From: a virus
Taxonomy: Duplodnaviria > Heunggongvirae > Uroviricota > Caudoviricetes
Direction: 5' to 3' (one strand)
IMG/VR virus record: IMGVR_UViG_2585427757_000006
Length of the DNA stretch: 64,000 nt
Numbering within the stretch: the stretch's first letter is position 1; every line of letters starts with the position of its first letter. Shown one piece after another: positions 46,661-61,122 of this stretch. Made by a program: the position numbers and the translations under genes. Under the pieces are notes generated by a model, which saw nothing but the letters and a program-made list of their open reading frames with translations, made no database searches and was not told where the DNA came from.

Positions 46661-47830
46661 TCACGTCTTAATAGTTTCTGCTACGTCGGCTAATATCGCT
46701 TCTAGTCGTTCTCCCTCTTCAGGTCTGAAGTAAAGAATGTTGGGGTTAAACCCGTAAAAGACAGTAACGTCAAGGTCTGGAAGATACTCCTTCCTGCCGA
46801 CCAAATCGGATGGCTTGTTTTTGTTGTTAAACAATGAAGTTGCCCGGCTGCCACACGTCAGCACATAGGTCGGACGCACCAGATTGATCTCTTCACGCAT
46901 AAAGTCGGTGAACTGGCCGATCTCGTCTTTGGTGTAGTCTTTTTCTTTGTCTTTAACCTTCTTGCAAACACCTGTGACATAGAGATCGCCCATGCGTAAA
47001 TCTCCAGCCGTCAATAGCTTGGCCTTAAAGTCGTCGTATCCGTTCTCCATAAAGTAACCGGTTCGAGCATCATTGCCGTTCGCATTGTCCAGAATGATCA
47101 TGATTTTCGGCTTAATACCAATGCTGGGGCGGATTAGTTCATCACCTAAGCCCATTTCAGCCGCCATCCGCGTCATGAGTACGTTAATTTCAGCCGAACG
47201 TTTGGGGTTCATCTCAAACGGACGTGAGGCTTTAACTGCGTCTATGACAAGGTTTCCCATCAATTCAGCCTGGTCGCGTAGGCGCTCTGGATCAGTTGCT
47301 GGCAGACTGCCTGGCTCGATGGATGCAAACGCCCCTACTTTTTGCAGCGATTCGCGCACTCGACTATTACAGGCACGTTTCTCGACAGCTTCTTCGAATT
47401 GCGCCAGTGACTCGAATTTGCCGCCAACTTTTTCTCGCGCTCTCATGATGGCTTGGCAGCCATTCTCAGAACACCCCTTCACAGCAGAGAAGGGCGCATA
47501 CAGCACCTGGCTGCCATCTTCAAGCGTGCGGATCTCGATTCGGTTAGATGACACGTTAACGTCTGGTGGCAATACGCGAATGCCATAGGTCAGCGCATCT
47601 TTAACCAGCCCCTGGTGTTTATCTTCGCCAAGAATAGTGAGAGCAGCAGCGAAAAACTCTGCGGGATAATGAGTTTTCAACCACATAGATTGATAACTGA
47701 TTAAGGAGTAAGCAACAGAGTGTGATTTGTTGAAGGCATACGCGCCGGATTTCTCAAACATATTCCAGATTTCTTCGGCTCGTTCGTGCGTCAGGCCATT
47801 GCTCTCTTCGACAACACCGGTAATTTTCAT
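46661..47830 (-). CDS. dnaE: DNA polymerase III alpha (DnaE-type) C-terminal fragment fused to a UDG-like domain (389 aa)
   Basis: YAFNKSHSVAYSLISYQSMWLKTHYPAEF is the conserved DnaE finger motif. The last ~170 aa (IMIILDNANGNDARTG...LTCGSRA...FYGFNPN) resemble a family-4 uracil-DNA-glycosylase fold. Confidence 0.8.
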   Translation of the reverse strand: MKITGVVEESNGLTHERAEEIWNMFEKSGAYAFNKSHSVAYSLISYQSMWLKTHYPAEFFAAALTILGEDKHQGLVKDALTYGIRVLPPDVNVSSNRIEIRTLEDGSQVLYAPFSAVKGCSENGCQAIMRAREKVGGKFESLAQFEEAVEKRACNSRVRESLQKVGAFASIEPGSLPATDPERLRDQAELMGNLVIDAVKASRPFEMNPKRSAEINVLMTRMAAEMGLGDELIRPSIGIKPKIMIILDNANGNDARTGYFMENGYDDFKAKLLTAGDLRMGDLYVTGVCKKVKDKEKDYTKDEIGQFTDFMREEINLVRPTYVLTCGSRATSLFNNKNKPSDLVGRKEYLPDLDVTVFYGFNPNILYFRPEEGERLEAILADVAETIKT

Positions 47831-48561
47831 GCAGTCACCTCATCAATCTTCACGAACTCATCCCCATTGGAGGCCAGCCAGTTCCGTTGGCGCTCCCAGC
47901 TCCATATCTCTTCACGCATTTCACTATGCAGGCGAATGTGGGCGTCTTCTGGAAGTGCTACAAGATTCCCAGGGGCGTTATCTATCGTATCGCGGTTAAT
48001 ATGGTGGACATGTTCATCGTCACGTAGCTCCCGACCGAGACGTTCTTTCGCTATCAATCGATGAACGTATTCGTATTGCGAAACGCCATTGTTACCAACC
48101 AGCTGCATCATGTAGCCGTTGGTTTTTACGATGATGCCACCTTTGTAGTTGTTCGCTTCTTCTCCGATCTTTCCGCGTTTGGCAGCCGCCAGCTTTTCCT
48201 TCGTCTCCGCGCGGATTGTTCTGCCGGTTAGCTTTTTCGAAACGGTGGCCACTCGCTCATCGATATCAGCACGCAGACCGGCATTCCACGAGGTTTTCCC
48301 ATACATAGGGTTGCCAGTGCCAGTCCGGGCTTCGGAGAGACGCTTCATACGTTCGTCATTATTTTTGTTTTTGCCACGATTCCAGGCTGGGGTAGCGGAG
48401 ATCCGCGCGCTTCCGCGCCTGATCCCCCATTTGGCTAATAAGCGGTCAATATTTGCCTTGCTGCAACCAGCTTCGGCGGCAATGTCTTCTTTTCTCATCA
48501 GGTCAACCATGTAACGCTGACGTAACCATTCTTCTGTGATTTTGTACTTCGTACTCGGCAT
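47827..48561 (-). CDS. Free-standing HNH homing endonuclease (244 aa)
   Basis: C-terminal HNH EYVHRLI...HVHHINRDTIDNAPGNLVAL..H, with NUMOD-like repeats (PAWNRGK, KTSWNAGL). ATGA overlap with the downstream polymerase fragment. Confidence 0.85.
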   Translation of the reverse strand: MPSTKYKITEEWLRQRYMVDLMRKEDIAAEAGCSKANIDRLLAKWGIRRGSARISATPAWNRGKNKNNDERMKRLSEARTGTGNPMYGKTSWNAGLRADIDERVATVSKKLTGRTIRAETKEKLAAAKRGKIGEEANNYKGGIIVKTNGYMMQLVGNNGVSQYEYVHRLIAKERLGRELRDDEHVHHINRDTIDNAPGNLVALPEDAHIRLHSEMREEIWSWERQRNWLASNGDEFVKIDEVTA

Positions 48562-48609
48562 TTCTAAGACTCACTAAACAAATTGTTTTCTTATCTTATA
48601 AATTAATTC

Positions 48610-50973
48610 TCAAATATCGAAGCTCGTTATGTCGGCATTTATTGCCATTGCTTCGGCATAAGTGCGACGCTCACCATCAGCACAAAGTAGGCGTGCTGCT
48701 TTATGGATTTTTCTCGTAGAACCATCATCCAGTGACACTGTCACCCAGCCTTCCTCCGCTCGCTTAATGAAGTCGCCGCCAATGGATTTCATTTTCTCCA
48801 TATCTTTTTTCCCGATCGCTTTCCTGACCGAGTCTGCTTCCGCCATTGAGAACCCCGCCAAGATTCGCGTAGCAGCCATGATCTGTTCCTGATAAATCAG
48901 AACTCCGTTTGTGTCGCGAGAGATGTCGTCCAGCATTGGGTGTAAGGAATGTGGGGCCATGAAGCCTTTGGCCACGGACACATAATCGTCCAACATGCCG
49001 GATTGAATCGGGCCAGGTCGGAAGAGCGCAGTTGTAGCGACGACCGTTTTAAAGCTCATTGGCTCAATTCCACCACCTAAATCTTTAAGCAGCTTGCGCA
49101 TTGGGCCTGATTCAAGCTGGAATACGCCCTGTGTATACCCTGCAGCAAAACCATCCAGCACCTTGCGATCTTCAAGAGAAATGGCATCAAGATTGATATC
49201 TTCACCTGTGTTCTCTTTTATGTAGCGTTTTGCACTATCGAGCAAATCGAGAGTTGCCAGGCCAAGCACGTCCAGCTTAATTAGGCCCATAGCCTCGCAG
49301 TAACGCTTGTCAAATGCGATACAACGCGCGTCACCACGGCGTTCAACCGGTGTACGTTCTGTCAGAGGAACACCTGCTACGATCATCCCTGCCGCATGTC
49401 TACCAAAGCCACGCATAAGGCTTTGTAACTTGCAGGCTGCATTGAATGCATCAGGATATTTTGTTGCGTATTTGTCGAGACTTGCCAGTTGTTCGCGCAG
49501 CTCTTCCAATGGAAGGCTATCATCCTCGACGTTCTTCAGTTCTTTTGATACCGCCATATCTGCGGACTCCACACCATAAATACGAGCGGTGTCACGTAGT
49601 GCAGAGGCTGCGCCCAGGTAGGTGAAGTTCGGAATGCCTGCAACGTAATCTTCGCCGTAGCGTTCATTCAGATACTCGATCACCTCATGGCGACGTGCCT
49701 GGCTGAAGTCCAAGTCCGCATCCGGCAAGTCGAGACGCTCAGGGTTGATGAAACGCTCAAACAGAAGACCGTGACGGATTGGGTCGACGTTGGTTATGCC
49801 TATGCACCACGCCACCAGAGAACCGGCAGAGGAACCACGACCAGGCCCAACGGGAATGCCAGTTTCACGACTATGATTCATCAGATCGCGCACCATCAGG
49901 AAGTAACCACAGAATCCCAGGCGAGTCAGCGTGTCCATTTCGTACTTTAGCCGCTCAACATAAACCCTGTTCTCAGAAGCAGGTGGTGTGTATCCAAACT
50001 CTTTTGTGGTAAGACGTTTACGCAGCCCTGCAACAGCCAGTTTCATCAGCGTTGCAGGTTCGTCGTCTGCCATCTTGGGCAGTGCTGGTGGCAATTCATG
50101 CCAGCGCCATGTGCAGGCATCGATAATGGAGTCCTGCGTTGTTGAGGCCATTGCAGCTGTTACCGGCACATCCATGCGAACGGAGAAGGCTTTAAGCGCC
50201 TCAAGGAGATGGCGACGACCATTGATGGCGTTATCTCGCTGGTGGGGGATACGCAGACGATGCGGCTGGTCGATTTTTATGTTGTTCGTAACCATGTGCG
50301 CAATGTCTTTAATGTCTGCATCGTCGATCGATTCGTAATAAGCGGGATAGAACGCCACTGGCTCTATTTTCAATGCGCTGGCGACTTTCATCGCCCGGAC
50401 GTTAATCTGGTCGTAGAATGGGGTAGGGTGCGGATAAACCACACTATAGAAGTTGTCTTTTCCACCCGCTGTAATCAGTGTGCTTATGATTTTTGCAAAA
50501 TCGTTGCGTTGGAACACGCTACCGATGTCGGAAGTAAGCAGGATGATGTTGCCTTTGGCATATGTAGAAACCAACTGTTCGAGCGAGAGACGCGGCACAA
50601 AGTAGAACTGTTCTCGTGTGTTGGCCACCGTCATTAGTTCGCAGATGTCGCGATATCCTTGCTCATTTTTAATTAGAGCGGTAAACGAGTAGTTACGTCC
50701 CCGCTCTAATGATTCCATACATCTCATAGATTCTTTAGCAAGTTTAGCCCGGTGCTCGTATGTGGGATCATCAACAATGTTTAGTTTCACACCACAAATA
50801 ACCGCCATGTCGTCACCAGCGGCACGTTGTAGTGGAATAACGCTCGCAATATTCATGCTATCTGCTGAAATTACAGCGGTGTAGCCAGCTTCTCTGGCAA
50901 TCTTCACCGCGTTTTCAGCTTTTAGAGCCGACTCCCCAAGTGAGAAGTCAGTTCGAACCATCAGTGCCTTCAT
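48610..50973 (-). CDS. dnaE: DNA polymerase III alpha (DnaE-type) N-terminal fragment: PHP, palm, thumb (787 aa)
   Basis: GPGRGSSAGSLVAW, DLPDADLDF (catalytic Asp pair) and LFRPGP. Ends 45 aa after ..FIKRAEEG with non-DnaE-like sequence. Confidence 0.9.
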   Translation of the reverse strand: MKALMVRTDFSLGESALKAENAVKIAREAGYTAVISADSMNIASVIPLQRAAGDDMAVICGVKLNIVDDPTYEHRAKLAKESMRCMESLERGRNYSFTALIKNEQGYRDICELMTVANTREQFYFVPRLSLEQLVSTYAKGNIILLTSDIGSVFQRNDFAKIISTLITAGGKDNFYSVVYPHPTPFYDQINVRAMKVASALKIEPVAFYPAYYESIDDADIKDIAHMVTNNIKIDQPHRLRIPHQRDNAINGRRHLLEALKAFSVRMDVPVTAAMASTTQDSIIDACTWRWHELPPALPKMADDEPATLMKLAVAGLRKRLTTKEFGYTPPASENRVYVERLKYEMDTLTRLGFCGYFLMVRDLMNHSRETGIPVGPGRGSSAGSLVAWCIGITNVDPIRHGLLFERFINPERLDLPDADLDFSQARRHEVIEYLNERYGEDYVAGIPNFTYLGAASALRDTARIYGVESADMAVSKELKNVEDDSLPLEELREQLASLDKYATKYPDAFNAACKLQSLMRGFGRHAAGMIVAGVPLTERTPVERRGDARCIAFDKRYCEAMGLIKLDVLGLATLDLLDSAKRYIKENTGEDINLDAISLEDRKVLDGFAAGYTQGVFQLESGPMRKLLKDLGGGIEPMSFKTVVATTALFRPGPIQSGMLDDYVSVAKGFMAPHSLHPMLDDISRDTNGVLIYQEQIMAATRILAGFSMAEADSVRKAIGKKDMEKMKSIGGDFIKRAEEGWVTVSLDDGSTRKIHKAARLLCADGERRTYAEAMAINADITSFDI

Positions 50974-55154: not shown

Positions 55155-55541
55155 ATGTCTGACAACAAGATTGAATTTATAGAAAGTCGCTATGCTGCTT
55201 TTATCGCAGGGCTGATTGAATCCTCACCTATGAGTCAGGCCCAAATAGCCAGACTTATTGGTTATAAAAATGCCAACAACCTTTCTTTAATTAAAAGTGG
55301 CAAAATTCCTTTGCCTATCGATAAGGTTCGTCCGTTGGCGCTGGCGCTGGGTATTGAGCCAAGTCGTCTTATGATGATGGTGCTGGAAGAACGCCAACCT
55401 GAACTCGCAGCATTTTTATACAAAGAAGGCACCGCTCCTCTTAACGAGGACGAAAAACAGGTTCTTGCTGCATATAACGAGCGATTCGGTAAAGAGAAAG
55501 GCGCATCACAAAAGGTTGTTGAGGCTATAAAGTCTCTATGA
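55155..55541 (+). CDS. XRE-type helix-turn-helix regulator (128 aa)
   Basis: MSQAQIARLIGYKNANNLSLIKSG fits an HTH. Converges on and overlaps the integrase gene end by 6 nt. Confidence 0.7.
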   Translation: MSDNKIEFIESRYAAFIAGLIESSPMSQAQIARLIGYKNANNLSLIKSGKIPLPIDKVRPLALALGIEPSRLMMMVLEERQPELAAFLYKEGTAPLNEDEKQVLAAYNERFGKEKGASQKVVEAIKSL

Positions 55542-56639
55542 AAAATTTACACGAATAAGCTCTGTTGATAGACGATCTCCCTTAAATTTGTGGTCAATTT
55601 CGTCTAAATCCGGTTGCTCTACGATTGATGCGATGTACGTCGAGAAACTTTCTAAGGCGTCTCGCATCTCGTCCATATAATCGTGCCGGTCGTAGACCCG
55701 ATCTATCCCCTCAAGACTGTGGTTCATGATTTTACGTGATACCTCCTGGCTTATGCCTAATGCTGGGAAGTAACTACGCGCAGTACGGCGCAAATCTCGG
55801 GGTGTAAATGGCTCAAGCTCCATCAGTTCTGGTCGTTCCAGAATACGACGTAATGCCTGGGCTATTGCCACTTTAGACATAGGAAGGTCTTTCCCGATTT
55901 TTTTATTCGAAGGCACGAGCCACTGGCTGTCTTTACCATATTCGAACAACTCTTCAATACAAGTGCGCATTAATGAGCTTAAAGGCAGAGAATGCTCACG
56001 GGCAGATTTGTTCCTCTTGCCTTGATTCCAAACCCCACGCTTAAGATTGAACTCACTTTTTTTAGCCCGCAGTACTTCGTCAGGTCGTCTTGCGGATACA
56101 AGACATAGCCTGGCCGCCCATTTTGTACCAGCACACACATTGAAGTAGTCCCATATATTCCAGAACACCCATACCTCTGCGTCGGTCAGCTTCCGCTCGC
56201 GAGGTGTGGGCTTTGCGCCACCGGCAACTTTGTTTAGTGACATATCGTTTAACGGTGACACGTCTATCATCCCCTGGAAGGCGCACCAGCTAAGGAACTG
56301 CTTCATCAGAGAGAAAACGCGGCGGCCCATAACAATTTTGCCATCCAGTATTAGTGGGTTGACCAGTTGGTTCACCATGAACCTATTAATGTCACTTACT
56401 TTTACATCGGCAATGTGCGGCAAAACATGTATCAAAATACAATGAACAGCGATCTCTGGCCGACGTCTGGTTATCAGCAGAGATAAGCGAGTGAATAACA
56501 TGAATGCGTCCGAGAATCTCATGTCATTGCTGACCTGGGAGATCATAACGGCCTGCATTTGAGATGCTCTTTCGAGATACTCTATCGCCTCTTTTGAGGT
56601 GTTCTCCGCAGCGCGTGCTCTGTCAAAGCTATTTTTCAT
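55536..56639 (-). CDS. Tyrosine recombinase / phage integrase family (367 aa)
   Basis: Catalytic context ARRPDEV (Arg), PRDLRRTA (second Arg), MNHS (His) and VYDRHDY (Tyr). Confidence 0.9.
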   Translation of the reverse strand: MKNSFDRARAAENTSKEAIEYLERASQMQAVMISQVSNDMRFSDAFMLFTRLSLLITRRRPEIAVHCILIHVLPHIADVKVSDINRFMVNQLVNPLILDGKIVMGRRVFSLMKQFLSWCAFQGMIDVSPLNDMSLNKVAGGAKPTPRERKLTDAEVWVFWNIWDYFNVCAGTKWAARLCLVSARRPDEVLRAKKSEFNLKRGVWNQGKRNKSAREHSLPLSSLMRTCIEELFEYGKDSQWLVPSNKKIGKDLPMSKVAIAQALRRILERPELMELEPFTPRDLRRTARSYFPALGISQEVSRKIMNHSLEGIDRVYDRHDYMDEMRDALESFSTYIASIVEQPDLDEIDHKFKGDRLSTELIRVNFS

Positions 56640-56737
56640 ATGACAATCACCGAGTTACGCCGATTCACTGTATAAGTAAACAGTATATTAGGCATAGATT
56701 CTTATAGGATCAAGAGTAAAAGTAACTCATTTTCAGT

Positions 56738-56770
56738 AATGATTCCATACATAGTAGGTATGGAATCATT
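56738..56770. promoter_or_regulatory. lox/FRT-like site: perfect 13-bp inverted arms around a 7-bp spacer
   Basis: aatgattccatac atagtag gtatggaatcatt, 99 nt upstream of the integrase ATG in the divergent intergenic region. Confidence 0.55.
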
Positions 56771-56889
56771 GTGGGCCTTTTTTATAAAATCTGTGATTCT
56801 TCTCAGGATAAATTATCTAAACTAAAAATTGTGTTTTGTGTTGGCATCTGCTTGAATAGACGCATGTTTATTCAGATATGGAATAATCA

Positions 56890-57426
56890 GTGAACAACCA
56901 AATTCATTGGGACTACCCATTCTCAGAAGAATTCGGCAGTGGGATGGTACACAGACAATTCACTGTGGGAAGCACTATTTATGCCGTTGGGTTTGAACAA
57001 ATATTGACGATGGATGATTTCACACGTAAGGGAGTTGATATCCTAAATGTACATCCAACATTCCGGTTTCCTCTGAGTGGTGTATGGGGAGTGATTTTTG
57101 ACGAAATTGACCCTGTAGAAATGGATTTCAAAGGATTTCGGCATATCCAACATCAAGGCTTGGCAGGTGGTCAAGTGCTTTTGAATGTTGCAAGTATAAT
57201 CTTTGACCATTATACTGTTTGTAACGCAGGAGCTTATGTCTTCTCCGCCGCAGACGACCATCAGCATTTACGCAGAACTGACTTGGTTGACATTTACTGT
57301 AAGATACTAGGTCTAAATGGAAAACGTAAAAGTAGATTGTTCGCCAATGGTTTTCCTGGATGGGAGGCATACTGTGATGTACCAACAGGAGGAAGAGGCT
57401 ATGTCGTCACGACTGAAAGTTATTAA
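56890..57426 (+). CDS. Hypothetical protein (178 aa, GTG start)
   Basis: Long plus-strand ORF. No motif recognised. Confidence 0.5.
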   Translation: MNNQIHWDYPFSEEFGSGMVHRQFTVGSTIYAVGFEQILTMDDFTRKGVDILNVHPTFRFPLSGVWGVIFDEIDPVEMDFKGFRHIQHQGLAGGQVLLNVASIIFDHYTVCNAGAYVFSAADDHQHLRRTDLVDIYCKILGLNGKRKSRLFANGFPGWEAYCDVPTGGRGYVVTTESY

Positions 57427-57628
57427 TTATTACCCCACCTCTGCAGAACGTTTGAGCCTTGAAATGGGCGAAAGACTACAGAAAGCTGCTGGTCAGGATT
57501 TAAAGAACAAGTTGGGTTCAGGGGAAATTAAACTGATTAACGGTAAATATGTAGGTGAAAGCCTGAAAGTTAATAGCACCTCTATGCTAAAAGCGCGGTT
57601 GCGTAAAGCGTATATCCCCGCTAAATGA
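57401..57628 (+). CDS. Hypothetical protein (75 aa from MSSRLKVINYY)
   Basis: ATG at 57401 preceded by ggaggaagagg. Overlaps the upstream ORF by 26 nt. A terminator follows. Confidence 0.4.
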   Translation: MSSRLKVINYYPTSAERLSLEMGERLQKAAGQDLKNKLGSGEIKLINGKYVGESLKVNSTSMLKARLRKAYIPAK

Positions 57629-57650
57629 AAAGGCCTATATGGGCCTTTTC
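57627..57650. terminator. Bidirectional terminator between convergent genes
   Basis: gaaaaggcc tatatg ggccttttc. Confidence 0.7.
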
Positions 57651-57654
57651 ATTT

Positions 57655-57900
57655 TTATAGTGTACTCACCAGCGCCGCAAATTCCGTATACCCCCCAATA
57701 TGCTCTCCATGTATGAATATCTGAGGTATGGTATCCACTGGTTTACCAACCAGGTTGCTCAACGTTTCTTTGTTGATCCCCGCAGATGTAATATCTATAT
57801 ACTCATAATCACCGTAGCCATGTCCCTTTAGTTGCTTCGCCAACTCGACCGCACGTTTGCAGTATGAGCAGTTATCTCGTCCGTAGATAGTGATCGTCAT
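57655..57900 (-). CDS. Glutaredoxin-like redoxin (81 aa)
   Basis: Active site CSYC at residues 11-14, a TIPQIFI..G..IGG motif, and small size. Plausible electron donor for NrdAB. Confidence 0.8.
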   Translation of the reverse strand: MTITIYGRDNCSYCKRAVELAKQLKGHGYGDYEYIDITSAGINKETLSNLVGKPVDTIPQIFIHGEHIGGYTEFAALVSTL

Positions 57901-58073
57901 AACTTAACAAATACCTTTATAAATATTGATTCGAACATATCAGACTATACTACAAACAGATTTTTTTGATAAGTATGTAGTAACTTATTGATTGACTAGT
58001 AAACAATTGAAGTGATTACGACAATAGATTACAGTAAGGATTGCCTTGAAATGTACATTTTATAGAGGTTTTA

Positions 58074-58982
58074 ATGATTGGTAAGTTGTCTGATTCTTTG
58101 ATTGAAAATAAATACAACGAATTTAGAGAAGAAATATCTTTACTTTTTGACTATTTAAATCAGATAAATGATACAACAAAGAAAAATATAAAACGTCTTC
58201 TTAAAGAAGTGGAGTATGCACAAAATCCAGATACTATTATTAATATTAATGAAACTATTAAGATTAAGTGTGGCACAACGTTAGCTCGCCATTTATGTTC
58301 AAACCCATATACAGGTTCAACATTAGAGATAGGTAACAGCGCCATTGATTTAGAAGAAAAGATAAGATTGTGTAATACTTTGAAAAATAAACAATATCAG
58401 TGGGTTATTACTGAAGCCTATGAGTTACTGGAAGACTATATTGAGGCAATATATGTCTATACTGTATGTGTTCGAAATGATTTATGGTCCTCAAGTGATT
58501 TTGGTAAGGTTGAAGATGATGAAATTGGGAAAAGGGAAGTTTATTACAGATTATTAAAAGCAAAAAGTAACCCATCGAAAAAAATAACTAAAATTTTCAG
58601 AAATAAAATACCTGGCTTCAAAGAGATAGAAACAAACAACAAGATTGGCAAAAACTATCGCTTTAACATCAAGCTAATTGAACTACTAAGACATACAATA
58701 GTACACAATAGTGGACGATTCAATGATACAGAAAAATTTATAAATAAGGTTTTAGATGAATCTGAAATAAACGGTAAGAAAAGAGTTATTGGAGAAAGAG
58801 CTGTTAGAAGTTACATTACTAAAGTGCAAGAAGATGATATTGTGATGCTCTTAGAAAGACCATCTGAAATTTTAGGTTCTTTTGGTGGGTATTTTAACAG
58901 AGCAAAATTTTTACTAAGTGATATTTTAGAATACTCACTAATCATTAAAGAAGAACTAAAATCATATCTAGGCAATCATTAA
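58074..58982 (+). CDS. Low-GC hypothetical protein with a HEPN-type Rx4H motif (302 aa)
   Basis: SD agagg at 58064-58068. LIELLRHTIVHNSGRF gives R-HTIV-H. Composition (by eye below ~30% GC) is much lower than the neighbours. Confidence 0.6.
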   Translation: MIGKLSDSLIENKYNEFREEISLLFDYLNQINDTTKKNIKRLLKEVEYAQNPDTIININETIKIKCGTTLARHLCSNPYTGSTLEIGNSAIDLEEKIRLCNTLKNKQYQWVITEAYELLEDYIEAIYVYTVCVRNDLWSSSDFGKVEDDEIGKREVYYRLLKAKSNPSKKITKIFRNKIPGFKEIETNNKIGKNYRFNIKLIELLRHTIVHNSGRFNDTEKFINKVLDESEINGKKRVIGERAVRSYITKVQEDDIVMLLERPSEILGSFGGYFNRAKFLLSDILEYSLIIKEELKSYLGNH

Positions 58983-59718: not shown

Positions 59719-59984
59719 AATTCAGCACTGCCAGTATTTATTACTCAACAGTGCCAATCGCGACGGTTTAGTTTCTGCCAGGAAACGCACCGCTACTTGC
59801 ACTTTTCGTTTGTGCCAGACGCTTTCGACTTCGCTCAATAGTAGAAGGCAAAATCTTTAAGTAGATGATGTTTCTGAGGACAGCACCTACTTTGTAATTT
59901 ATACAATGTGATGTATGGAATCATTTGTTGTGAAAACAGGCACCAATGGCAACAGTGGTTAAACCTACACAACAATCCTGTCTT

Positions 59985-60761: not shown

Positions 60762-60910
60762 TTTTTCACCTTTGTTTCATGAACTACCCGATACACACGC
60801 TTTCCGATGCACAGTGTTTTGGTTTTAAGTTCCTGCTTAATTAAATCACGACAGATGCCGAAGCCGATAAGGAAGCCACCCATAAAAGCTAATGAGATGT
60901 ATGGAATCAT
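60758..60910 (-). CDS. Small membrane protein (50 aa), not in the ORF track
   Basis: Hand translation gives MIPYISLAFMGGFLIGFGICRDLIKQELKTKTLCIGKRVYRVVHETKVKK. ATGA overlaps at both ends. Confidence 0.5.
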   Translation of the reverse strand: MIPYISLAFMGGFLIGFGICRDLIKQELKTKTLCIGKRVYRVVHETKVKK

Positions 60911-61122
60911 TTTAACACTCCTGATTCTACTAATTGCTGTAGCAATACTTTCCCTTTATCAGTTAACTGGTAGTTGGCCGAACACCACGTTTCAGAAACG
61001 TTTGCAACCAACCCTAAACGCTCTAACTTAGCTCGCGTTTTAGGCTTCCAGTACTCAGGGAACTCCGGCCACTTACTGATTTCATGAAGCGTTTCCTTCT
61101 CCCGTTTACTTAATACGATCAT
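60907..61122 (-). CDS. Hypothetical protein (71 aa)
   Basis: ORF in an ATGA-coupled chain. Confidence 0.5.
   Translation of the reverse strand: MIVLSKREKETLHEISKWPEFPEYWKPKTRAKLERLGLVANVSETWCSANYQLTDKGKVLLQQLVESGVLK

What the first reader, a model, noticed from the sequence alone, without database searches (positions are those of the whole stretch)
55155..56890. Tyrosine recombinase with a lox/FRT-style 13-7-13 site in its own promoter region
The sequence aatgattccatac-atagtag-gtatggaatcatt (56738-56770) lies 99 nt upstream of the integrase ATG. It has perfect 13-bp inverted arms around a 7-bp asymmetric spacer, which is the geometry of minimal tyrosine-recombinase sites (loxP and FRT have 13-bp arms; dif-type sites are similar). 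In P1 the Cre gene also lies next to loxP and serves cyclisation and dimer resolution. This element may have an analogous but unrelated recombinase/site pair. An XRE-type gene converges on the integrase with a 6-nt overlap. Alternatively the dyad is simply the operator of the divergent promoters.
Basis: partly seen in the sequence, partly recalled or inferred. Interest (0 to 1): 0.65.

Follow-up and report, generated by a model that had tools for sequence, protein, structure and literature searches.

The report
Plasmid-prophage recombinase with its own site
A tyrosine recombinase gene of an SSU5-like plasmid prophage sits next to a perfect 13-7-13 palindrome that follows this recombinase family everywhere and changes in step with it, so the pair is most likely an uncharacterised Cre/loxP-style system that keeps the plasmid monomeric.

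Summary
A perfect 13-7-13 dyad lies at 56738-56770, 98 nt upstream of a tyrosine-recombinase gene (55536..56639, minus strand). The window is an SSU5/pSLy3-like phage-plasmid. A search seeded only with the recombinase found 63 family loci. All 63 have a dyad with a 7-bp spacer just upstream of the gene. The arms are TGATTCCATAC where Int is at least 57% identical and TGACTCCAGAC where it is 45-53% identical. Both differences are mirrored in both arms. The XRE gene is missing from most of these loci, so the dyad goes with Int and not with XRE. Int has no arm-binding domain, and its model is closest to the lambda Int core-binding plus catalytic domains. In 5,426 complete E. coli genomes all 255 copies are on plasmids. 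No Xer site or second recombinase was found. My best reading is a simple recombinase/site pair for plasmid multimer resolution that probably also represses its own promoter. Recombination itself is inferred, not shown. New findings are a LexA box in the int promoter, a conserved ~26-nt flank, in-situ spacer flips, a cargo hotspot starting exactly at the dyad, and three unexplained single arm copies nearby.

The parts
56738..56770 (.). Core site: 13-bp arm AATGATTCCATAC (56738-56750), 7-bp spacer ATAGTAG (56751-56757), 13-bp arm GTATGGAATCATT (56758-56770).
   Evidence: Sequence read. Inverted repeat reported. Present next to an int homolog in 79 of the 80 IMG/VR loci returned (the cap); the 80th is cut at its contig end. 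Present in 63/63 family loci found from the protein alone. Arm covariation measured.
55536..56639 (-). Tyrosine recombinase (Int, 367 aa). It has no arm-binding N-domain. Catalytic positions are R185, K211, R281 (in place of the usual His), R284, H307 and Y316.
   Evidence: Pfam PF00589, E 2.9e-10. PHROG 1 integrase. Alignment A2. AF2 model with pLDDT 84.5. Foldseek best hits are lambda Int, Tn1549 Int, Xer and IntI.
56685..56713 (-). Best sigma-70-like int promoter: -35 TTGATC (56713-56708), 17-bp spacer, -10 TAATAT (56690-56685).
   Evidence: Read directly from the sequence. It scores 8/12 matches, below the scan threshold. The same hexamers are conserved in Kluyvera and Yersinia loci. This is an inference.
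56668..56683 (.). LexA-box-like palindrome CTGTATAAGTAAACAG, immediately downstream of the -10 and covering the expected int transcription start.
   Evidence: It is the only CTGT-N8-ACAG in the 64-kb window (0.84 expected by chance). It is conserved at the same place in Klebsiella pJN2-26 and in Kluyvera and Y. pestis loci. It is absent from the rest of the family.
56771..56797 (.). Conserved flank on the side away from int (GTGGGCCTTTTTTATAAAATCTGTGAT): a T-tract followed by AAATCTG. It may be an accessory or regulatory element.
   Evidence: Position-wise conservation across 51 dereplicated family loci. Right-flank listing.
55155..55541 (+). XRE-type HTH protein (128 aa), convergent with int with a 6-nt overlap. 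It accompanies int only in phage-plasmid contexts.
   Evidence: Weak Pfam HTH_19 hit. PHROG 8 transcriptional regulator. tblastn finds it in only 8 of the 63 family loci.
56771..57673 (+). Hypervariable cargo slot that starts exactly at the right arm. Here it holds ORFs 56890..57426 (178 aa) and 57317..57628 (103 aa), neither with any family match.
   Evidence: Megablast homology to relatives stops at 56770 and resumes at 57674. Among 7 cargo types, the left 300 bp are 87-100% identical and the right 300 bp only 52-60%. No Pfam, PHROG, PADLOC or NCBIfam hits.
50708..50720 (+). Single copy of the arm 13-mer, inside the polIII-alpha gene on the antisense strand and pointing toward the dyad.
   Evidence: All 13 nt are invariant across lineages whose flanks have diverged.
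59913..59925 (-). Single copy of the arm 13-mer upstream of the tRNA cluster, pointing toward the dyad.
60899..60911 (-). Single copy of the arm 13-mer, overlapping the stop codon of a 71-aa regulator gene and the ATG of a 50-aa membrane ORF. It points toward the dyad.
   Evidence: Cyrano annotation.

Best explanation
Int and the dyad form a self-contained, simple tyrosine-recombinase/site module. One Int protomer binds each 13-bp arm. Two occupied sites, one on each half of a plasmid dimer, synapse. Strand exchange then runs across the 7-bp AT-rich spacer and converts dimers of this ~108-kb low-copy plasmid prophage into monomers, as Cre/loxP does for P1. The site lies just upstream of, or overlapping, the int promoter, so Int bound there probably also represses its own synthesis. 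In enterobacterial phage-plasmids a LexA box adds SOS control. Shown here: the anatomy, the strict Int-dyad linkage, the symmetric arm covariation, the missing arm-binding domain, and the plasmid-only location. Inferred: binding of Int to the arms, catalysis at this site, the dimer-resolution role, and autoregulation.
For: 1. Int is a tyrosine recombinase by Pfam, PHROG and fold, and catalytic residues spaced as in lambda Int are conserved across the family. 2. It lacks the arm-binding domain PF13356 that its nearest outgroups have, and its N-terminus is predicted all-helical. It should therefore need only a core site. 3. In a scan seeded only with the protein, 63/63 family loci carry a 7-bp-spaced dyad 44-254 nt upstream of int. 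These loci span phage-plasmids, Pantoea and Erwinia plasmids and other large replicons whose flanking genes differ. 4. Two arm positions differ between the clades, and both arms change together: C-G in 44 sequences versus T-A in 18, and G-C in 42 versus T-A in 18, with no one-sided changes. Pairing is 92% against 28-40% in slid controls. 5. Three Chimaeribacter genomes each carry two paralogous modules with different arms. 6. XRE is absent from most loci. 7. In E. coli, 255/255 copies are on plasmids and none on a chromosome; 793 PLSDB plasmids match. 8. The full Cyrano genome has only one dyad and annotates no other site-specific recombinase, and no Xer cer/dif-like site was found. 9. The spacer length is invariant and the spacer is AT-rich. 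TTAATAG is shared by both clades, and it occurs in either orientation relative to the flanks. That is what one expects if only the relative orientation of sister copies matters. 10. Predictions of Cre-type recombinases paired with nearby palindromes were validated experimentally about half the time (PMC10250229).
Against: No recombination product, dimer junction or cointegrate with two dyads was seen in any dataset. The first catalytic His is replaced by Arg in the whole family, and activity is untested. The arm covariation is also what shared inheritance of a linked operator or hairpin would give. A conserved ~26-nt flank and a nearby -10-like element fit a purely regulatory site equally well. 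The three conserved single arms, which persist in SSU5 even though it lacks int, are not explained by a resolution model. SSU5 does without the module entirely.
Confidence: 0.6

Rival explanations
1. The dyad is only a regulatory operator. Int, or another dimeric DNA-binding protein, binds it to control the int promoter and the divergent cargo promoter, and no strand exchange takes place there.
For: A -10-like TAnAAT lies 16-21 nt from the dyad on the int side in most lineages, so the int-proximal arm overlaps a -35 position. There is a conserved flank on the other side. The family-wide His-to-Arg change at a catalytic position could mean reduced catalysis. Tyrosine-recombinase folds used as repressors do exist: YopR and SroF appear among the Foldseek hits.
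Against: R185, K211, R284, H307 and Y316 are conserved across a family that has diverged to 42% identity, which argues that catalysis is maintained. The 13-7-13 geometry puts the arm centres 20 bp apart and each arm has 11 invariant or covarying bp. That is typical of recombinase core sites and not of HTH operators. The module is retained on many unrelated plasmids that have no conserved divergent gene.
Confidence: 0.17
2. The dyad is the operator of the convergent XRE-type repressor.
For: XRE is adjacent to int in all phage-plasmid members and is annotated as a putative repressor in Cyrano. The single arms occur only in clade-A phage-plasmids, and all of those except SSU5 also carry XRE.
Against: tblastn finds XRE in only 8 of the 63 family loci, whereas the dyad is present in all of them. 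In L117 the downstream gene is H-NS-like, and L090 has no HTH gene nearby. The arms stay identical while XRE drops to 44-50% identity.
Confidence: 0.03
3. The dyad is an attI-like docking site. SOS-induced Int captures or swaps cargo DNA at the right arm, which would explain the cargo hotspot.
For: Homology breaks exactly at the right arm. At least 7 unrelated cargo types sit next to left flanks that are 87-100% identical. There is a LexA box in the int promoter, as in integron intI promoters (the integron comparison is from my own knowledge). IntI is among the Foldseek hits. Published work places antibiotic-resistance insertions of SSU5-like elements in one locus of this region (PMC9600943).
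Against: There is no second dyad or attC-like site at the far end of the cargo; arm-like matches with up to 4 mismatches occur at about the chance rate. The conserved T-tract/AAATCTG flank survives in most cargo types, so the junction is not at the crossover point. Further variable slots lie more than 1 kb away, as in ordinary plastic regions. The resistance insertions are attributed to IS elements and class 1 integrons.
Confidence: 0.08
4. The dyad is a structural hairpin, acting as a transcription terminator or insulator between int and the cargo or grx unit, or as an RNA element.
For: The terminator scan lists it, with a 15-pair stem followed by a T-rich tail. The RNA fold has a z-score of -2.8 to -3.8. 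Loop flips such as L002 versus L038 are typical of hairpins.
Against: The stem is AT-rich and the T-run starts 8-9 nt after it, which is not a canonical terminator. Eight of the 11 core positions are invariant across the family and there are no G-U-type one-sided changes, so the sequence is selected and not just the pairing. The loop sequence TTAATAG is itself conserved between clades. There is no Rfam match.
Confidence: 0.05
5. The dyad is an attP used for chromosomal integration of the phage-plasmid.
For: Int descends from the P4/lambda-like integrase branch.
Against: None of the 255 copies in complete E. coli genomes is chromosomal. The dyad is intact wherever int is found, whereas an integrated element would carry a split site. 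Int has no arm-binding domain.
Confidence: 0.03

Closest known systems
Cre/loxP of phage-plasmid P1, and the Cre-type pairs Dre/rox, Vika/vox and Panto/pox
   Same: A single tyrosine recombinase with no arm-binding domain. The gene lies next to a palindromic site with 13-bp arms around a short asymmetric spacer. The host element is a low-copy plasmid prophage. The inferred role is dimer resolution.
   Different: There is no detectable sequence relationship to Cre (no PDB sequence hit). Foldseek ranks lambda Int, Tn1549 Int, Xer and IntI above Cre. The spacer is 7 bp and not 8. The first catalytic His is Arg. About 26 nt of flank are also conserved. A LexA box is present in one clade. The published Cre-type screen required 8-bp spacers, so it could not have found this family (PMC10250229).
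Lambda/P4-like (CP4-57-type) phage integrases
   Same: They are the closest sequence outgroups at 25-34% identity. The best structural match is lambda Int residues 75-356. They share the Phage_int_M central domain. My own knowledge, not tested here: the 7-bp spacer equals the 7-bp overlap of lambda-type core sites.
   Different: This family has no N-terminal arm-binding domain PF13356. Its core site is perfectly symmetric, with no sign of arm-type sites. It shows no chromosomal integration. The NCBIfam P4-type model scores 33.9 bits against a cut-off of 434.
Plasmid and transposon resolution systems that use tyrosine recombinases (F ResD/rfsF, Tn4430 TnpI/IRS, XerCD/cer)
   Same: The recombinase gene abuts its site on a plasmid. 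The core is an inverted repeat. A conserved asymmetric flank lies on one side, which recalls the accessory motifs of IRS or cer. These comparisons are from my own knowledge of those systems.
   Different: The flank is short, about 26 nt, and contains no recognisable extra arm copies. The spacer can flip relative to the flank, which is unexpected if the flank dictated synapse topology. The recombinase is plasmid-encoded, unlike host XerCD.
Integron IntI/attI
   Same: A tyrosine recombinase gene is transcribed divergently from a variable cargo region that begins at its site. A LexA box lies in the recombinase promoter.
   Different: There are no attC-bounded cassettes and no second site. The site is a double-stranded perfect palindrome.
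P1 C1 repressor operator network (relevant to the single arms only)
   Same: Single asymmetric sites are dispersed and there is one inverted pair ('bivalent' operator) next to regulatory genes. This resemblance is recalled from my own knowledge.
   Different: Only five arm copies exist in the 108-kb genome, all within 9.2 kb. Most do not lie at recognisable promoters. The binding protein is unknown.

Membership tests
Tyrosine recombinase superfamily | Phage_integrase catalytic-domain fold | tested here: met
   PF00589 scores 40.6 bits against a cut-off of 27.1. The AF2 model has pLDDT 84.5. Foldseek gives E 2e-7 to lambda Int with probability 1.00.
Tyrosine recombinase superfamily | Catalytic R-K-H-R-H/W-Y set | tested here: inconclusive
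   R185, K211, R284, H307 and Y316 are conserved with lambda-like spacing. The first His is Arg (R281) in every family member, while the outgroups keep His. The mapping onto lambda Int residues relies on my own knowledge.
Cre-type simple recombinases (Cre, Dre, Vika, Panto) | Sequence or closest-fold relationship to Cre | tested here: not met
   phmmer against all PDB chains finds nothing at E<=1. Cre chains rank 40th or lower, at E about 1e-2, behind lambda Int, Tn1549 Int, Xer and IntI.
Cre-type simple recombinases (Cre, Dre, Vika, Panto) | Target of two 13-bp inverted repeats around an 8-bp spacer | tested here: not met
   The arms are 13 bp (11-bp conserved core), but the spacer is 7 bp in all 63 family loci.
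Cre-type simple recombinases (Cre, Dre, Vika, Panto) | Recombines two minimal sites without accessory proteins | not testable with these tools
   This needs an in vivo or in vitro recombination assay.
Lambda/P4-like heteronomous integrases | N-terminal arm-binding domain (PF13356 or a lambda N-domain) | tested here: not met
   Family members carry only PF22022 and PF00589, whereas outgroups P0114-P0120 also carry PF13356. In the alignment a short helical N-terminus replaces that domain. DSSP assigns helices and essentially no beta strand to residues 1-135.
Lambda/P4-like heteronomous integrases | Integration into a chromosomal attB, leaving split attL and attR | tested here: not met
   0 of 255 places are chromosomal in 5,426 complete E. 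coli genomes. The dyad is intact in every locus.
Plasmid multimer-resolution systems | Recombinase gene adjacent to its site on a plasmid, with one site per replicon | tested here: met
   There are 793 PLSDB plasmids and 255 E. coli plasmid copies. The complete 108-kb Cyrano genome has a single dyad.
Plasmid multimer-resolution systems | Loss of the system causes multimer accumulation and instability | not testable with these tools
   This needs genetics.
Integron platform (IntI/attI/attC) | Cassettes bounded by attC sites next to attI | tested here: not met
   There is no second dyad or arm-like site in or beyond the cargo. Matches with up to 4 mismatches number 21, excluding the four exact arm copies, against about 13 expected by chance, and none is paired.
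XRE/Cro-type repressor-operator pair | Operator co-occurs with its HTH repressor gene | tested here: not met
   XRE is detectable in 8 of 63 loci, while the dyad is present in 63 of 63.

The most novel reading that the evidence does not exclude
The module may do more than resolve dimers. SOS-induced Int, acting at the dyad, would drive exchange of the cargo that begins exactly at the right arm, making the site an integron-like or lox-like docking point for shuffling accessory genes between co-resident phage-plasmids. The three or four conserved single arms that all point toward the dyad would form a polar Int-binding network that regulates or delimits this activity.
Probability: 0.08. Interest if true: 0.8.

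Novelty: new member of a known kind. Interest (0 to 1): 0.5.

Why it matters
SSU5/pHCM2/pMT1/pKpn-type phage-plasmids are common in E. coli, Klebsiella, Salmonella Typhi and Yersinia pestis, and they carry resistance and virulence cargo. Their only site-specific recombinase has no assigned site or role in the papers I could search. Pairing it with a defined 33-bp site gives a directly testable maintenance function. It also provides a handle for curing or destabilising these plasmids. Two natural specificity variants exist (TGATTCCATAC and TGACTCCAGAC arms, 7-bp spacer), and they could serve as recombinase tools orthogonal to Cre-type systems. The family also shows how an arm-dependent integrase lineage can simplify into a lox-like system.

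Tried and rejected
1. XRE as the dyad binder: rejected, because XRE is absent from most family loci. 2. Chromosomal attP: rejected, because all E. coli copies are on plasmids. 3. A conserved divergent gene explaining the flank motif: checked in L086, L129 and L101, and no shared ORF was found. 4. Single arms as a universal part of the system: rejected, because none occur within +-10 kb in the Xenorhabdus and Providencia phage-plasmids. 5. Single arms as the far boundaries of cargo or of the int module: rejected, because the region missing in SSU5 does not end at arm copies. 6. A replication terminus or origin at the dyad: no GC-skew switch is visible. 7. A Xer cer/dif-like site as an alternative resolution system: none was found in the window or in Cyrano under loose criteria. 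8. A known RNA family at the dyad: none. 9. Literature search for the arm sequences and for any study of this recombinase: only unrelated primer hits and general phage-plasmid surveys turned up. One listed preprint could not be opened. 10. Function of the cargo ORFs: no hit in Pfam, PHROGs, PADLOC or NCBIfam.
Full report
WHAT THE WINDOW IS. The region matches Escherichia phage-plasmids of the SSU5/pSLy3 type at 93-99% identity (CMS-2020a, Cyrano, PhiR41_1) and Klebsiella relatives at about 74%. The gene order is polIII-alpha, CobS-like, CobT-like, a 70-aa ORF, XRE, Int, the dyad, variable cargo, glutaredoxin, tRNAs and ligase. It is the same as in the annotated relatives.

THE OBSERVATION. The sequence aatgattccatac-atagtag-gtatggaatcatt lies at 56738-56770, exactly as reported. 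The int ORF is 55536..56639 on the minus strand. The XRE-like ORF 55155..55541 converges on it with a 6-nt overlap. The spacer is itself nearly palindromic.

THE PROTEIN. Int matches Pfam Phage_integrase (E 2.9e-10), weakly matches the Phage_int_M central domain, and matches the PHROG integrase family. No named NCBIfam family claims it: the P4-type model scores 33.9 bits against a cut-off of 434. No solved structure is detectable by sequence. A database search found a compact family of about 110 clusters at 42-100% identity. Most sit on ~100-120-kb contigs of Enterobacterales, but some sit on large Pantoea, Rahnella and Erwinia replicons. The family is followed by a sharp drop to P4-like integrases at 25-34% identity.

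Those outgroups carry the arm-binding domain PF13356; the family does not. The AlphaFold model (pLDDT 84.5) is all-helical through residue ~135. It superposes best on lambda Int residues 75-356, then on Tn1549 Int, Xer and IntI, with Cre much lower. R185, K211, R284, H307 and Y316 are conserved with lambda-like spacing. The first catalytic His is Arg in every member. Int is therefore a lambda/P4-branch recombinase that has lost the arm-binding domain of its relatives, so a core site should be enough for it.

THE DYAD GOES WITH INT. An exact-arm scan of IMG/VR returned 80 loci (the cap). Each has an int homolog (59-100% identity) 44-99 nt away, except one locus cut at its contig end. That scan is circular, because it required perfect arms. 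I therefore searched one genome per species using only the protein alignment. All 63 family loci have a dyad with a 7-bp spacer 44-254 nt upstream of int. Fifty-eight of these dyads have perfect arms and five have one or two asymmetric positions.

Where Int is at least 57% identical to the window's, the arms are TGATTCCATAC (Kluyvera, Y. pestis pMT1, Buttiauxella, Chimaeribacter). Where it is 45-53% identical, they are TGACTCCAGAC (Pantoea, Rahnella, Erwinia, Ewingella, Hafnia, Xenorhabdus, Photorhabdus, Morganella, Providencia). Both differences are mirrored in both arms. Counted on 62 distinct sites, the two pairs are C-G 44 / T-A 18 and G-C 42 / T-A 18, with no one-sided changes. Pairing is 92%, against 28-40% when the partner column is slid. 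Eight of the 11 core positions never vary, so the sequence is selected and not only the pairing.

Three Chimaeribacter genomes each hold two paralogous modules with different arms. That is what separate specificities would look like.

NOT THE XRE PROTEIN. tblastn finds XRE in only 8 of the 63 loci, all of them phage-plasmid contexts. A Pantoea plasmid has an H-NS-like gene downstream of int instead. A Chimaeribacter locus sits among metabolic genes. No conserved divergent gene exists either.

LOCATION AND COPY NUMBER. In 5,426 complete E. coli genomes, 252 carry int plus the dyad. All 255 places are on plasmids and none is chromosomal. PLSDB has 793 matching plasmids. The complete Cyrano genome has one dyad and annotates no other site-specific recombinase. 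I found no cer/dif-like Xer site in the window or in Cyrano. A low-copy 108-kb plasmid would be expected to need a way of resolving dimers, and this module is the only candidate found.

THE SPACER. Its length is always 7. It is AT-rich, and TTAATAG or its exact reverse complement CTATTAA dominates in both clades. PhiR41_1 and an IMG/VR relative are 99.8% and 100% identical over 1 kb on either side of the dyad, yet carry exactly reverse-complemented spacers, CTACTAT versus ATAGTAG. The spacer therefore flips in place, and site polarity relative to the neighbouring genes is neutral. That fits a site whose partner is always a sister copy. Template switching at a hairpin, or antiparallel synapsis followed by mismatch repair, could produce such flips. 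I cannot tell which.

EXTRA ANATOMY.
- The best int promoter is TTGATC-17-TAATAT (56713-56685). It is followed at once by CTGTATAAGTAAACAG, the only LexA-box pattern in the window. The box is conserved in the Klebsiella, Kluyvera and Yersinia relatives but is absent from the rest of the family. SSU5-like elements are inducible by mitomycin C (PMC9600943).
- Across 51 dereplicated loci, about 26 nt on the side away from int are conserved (consensus tCAGAtTTCatCAgAAnGCGTCtTTg). In most lineages a TAnAAT hexamer lies 16-21 nt from the dyad on the int side. The functional site is therefore larger than the dyad, and Int bound there would probably repress its own promoter.
- Homology between closely related elements stops exactly at the right arm. 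Among seven cargo types, the left 300 bp are 87-100% identical and the right 300 bp only 52-60%. No second site bounds the cargo.

UNEXPLAINED. The arm 13-mer also occurs singly at 50708(+), 59913(-) and 60899(-). The first lies inside polIII-alpha on the antisense strand. The second lies upstream of the tRNAs. The third overlaps the ATG of a 50-aa membrane ORF. The whole 108-kb Cyrano genome has only these five arm copies, all within 9.2 kb. The singles are invariant over 12-15 nt while their flanks diverge, and they are usually followed by ATC. A fourth near-copy lies inside int in the clade whose Int is about 85% identical. All point toward the dyad.

The singles persist in SSU5, which lacks int, XRE and the dyad. 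They are absent from the Xenorhabdus and Providencia phage-plasmids. They might be Int half-sites, a monomeric operator network of the P1 C1 type, or RNA-pairing elements. I could not decide among these.

VERDICT. The comparative evidence makes the dyad the cognate site of Int. The most economical function is Cre/loxP-like multimer resolution combined with autoregulation (confidence 0.6). Nothing here demonstrates strand exchange. A purely regulatory site (0.17) and a cargo-docking role (0.08) remain open. I found no description of this recombinase/site pair in the searchable literature. The published screen for Cre-type pairs required 8-bp spacers and Cre homology.

Noticed in passing
window 50708-50720(+), 59913-59925(-), 60899-60911(-): Three single copies of the dyad's 13-mer arm, each usually followed by ATC. 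They are the only other copies in the ~108-kb genome. All lie within 9.2 kb of each other and all point toward the dyad. They are invariant while their flanks diverge. They are kept in SSU5, which lacks int, and are absent from clade-B phage-plasmids.
   Followed up: partly
window 56668-56683: A LexA-box-like CTGT-N8-ACAG directly after the -10 of the int promoter. It is the only such pattern in the window. It is conserved in the Klebsiella, Kluyvera and Y. pestis relatives but not in the rest of the family.
   Followed up: partly
window 46661-50973 (-): The polIII-alpha gene is split into 787-aa and 389-aa ORFs by an HNH_3/NUMOD3 homing-endonuclease ORF (47827..48561). Phage Cyrano has one uninterrupted 1168-aa gene.
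   Followed up: partly
L002 6136-6168 versus L038 4934-4966: Two near-identical elements (99.8% and 100% identical over 1 kb on each side of the dyad) carry exactly reverse-complemented 7-bp spacers. Both orientations of TTAATAG also occur in each clade.
   Followed up: partly
window 56771-56797; family loci L086-L161: A ~26-nt element on the side of the dyad away from int is conserved across the family. Pantoea-type sites have two TTCTGA direct repeats 11 bp apart. On the int side, a TAnAAT hexamer lies 16-21 nt from the dyad.
   Followed up: partly
L084 42344-42761 (Salmonella phage SSU5): SSU5 itself lacks the whole block between CobT and tRNA-Asn: the 70-aa ORF, XRE, int, the dyad, cargo, glutaredoxin and the extra tRNAs. 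Only 165 bp lie between tRNA-Asn and CobT.
   Followed up: partly
L090/L143, L091/L135, L092/L138 (Chimaeribacter): Each of three Chimaeribacter genomes has two paralogous Int+dyad modules. One has TGATTCCATAC arms. The other has asymmetric arms, TGACGCCAGAC and TGACTCCATAC.
   Followed up: partly
L162 4150-5637 (Klebsiella plasmid phvKP12-B): A group II intron (ltrA) is inserted between the int start codon and the LexA-box/dyad region, in the same orientation as int.
   Followed up: no
window 56771-58982: There are two separate variable slots: dyad to glutaredoxin, and glutaredoxin to the tRNAs. ORFs 56890..57426, 57317..57628 and 58074..58982 match nothing in Pfam, PADLOC or NCBIfam; the last matches only a PHROG of unknown function. 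In the commonest relatives, glutaredoxin lies just 99 nt from the dyad.
   Followed up: partly
window 57623-57654: A terminator-like palindrome, AAATGAAAAGGCC-N6-GGCCTTTTCATTT, lies at the far end of the cargo slot. It shares the outer AATGA...TCATT with the dyad, which may be chance.
   Followed up: no
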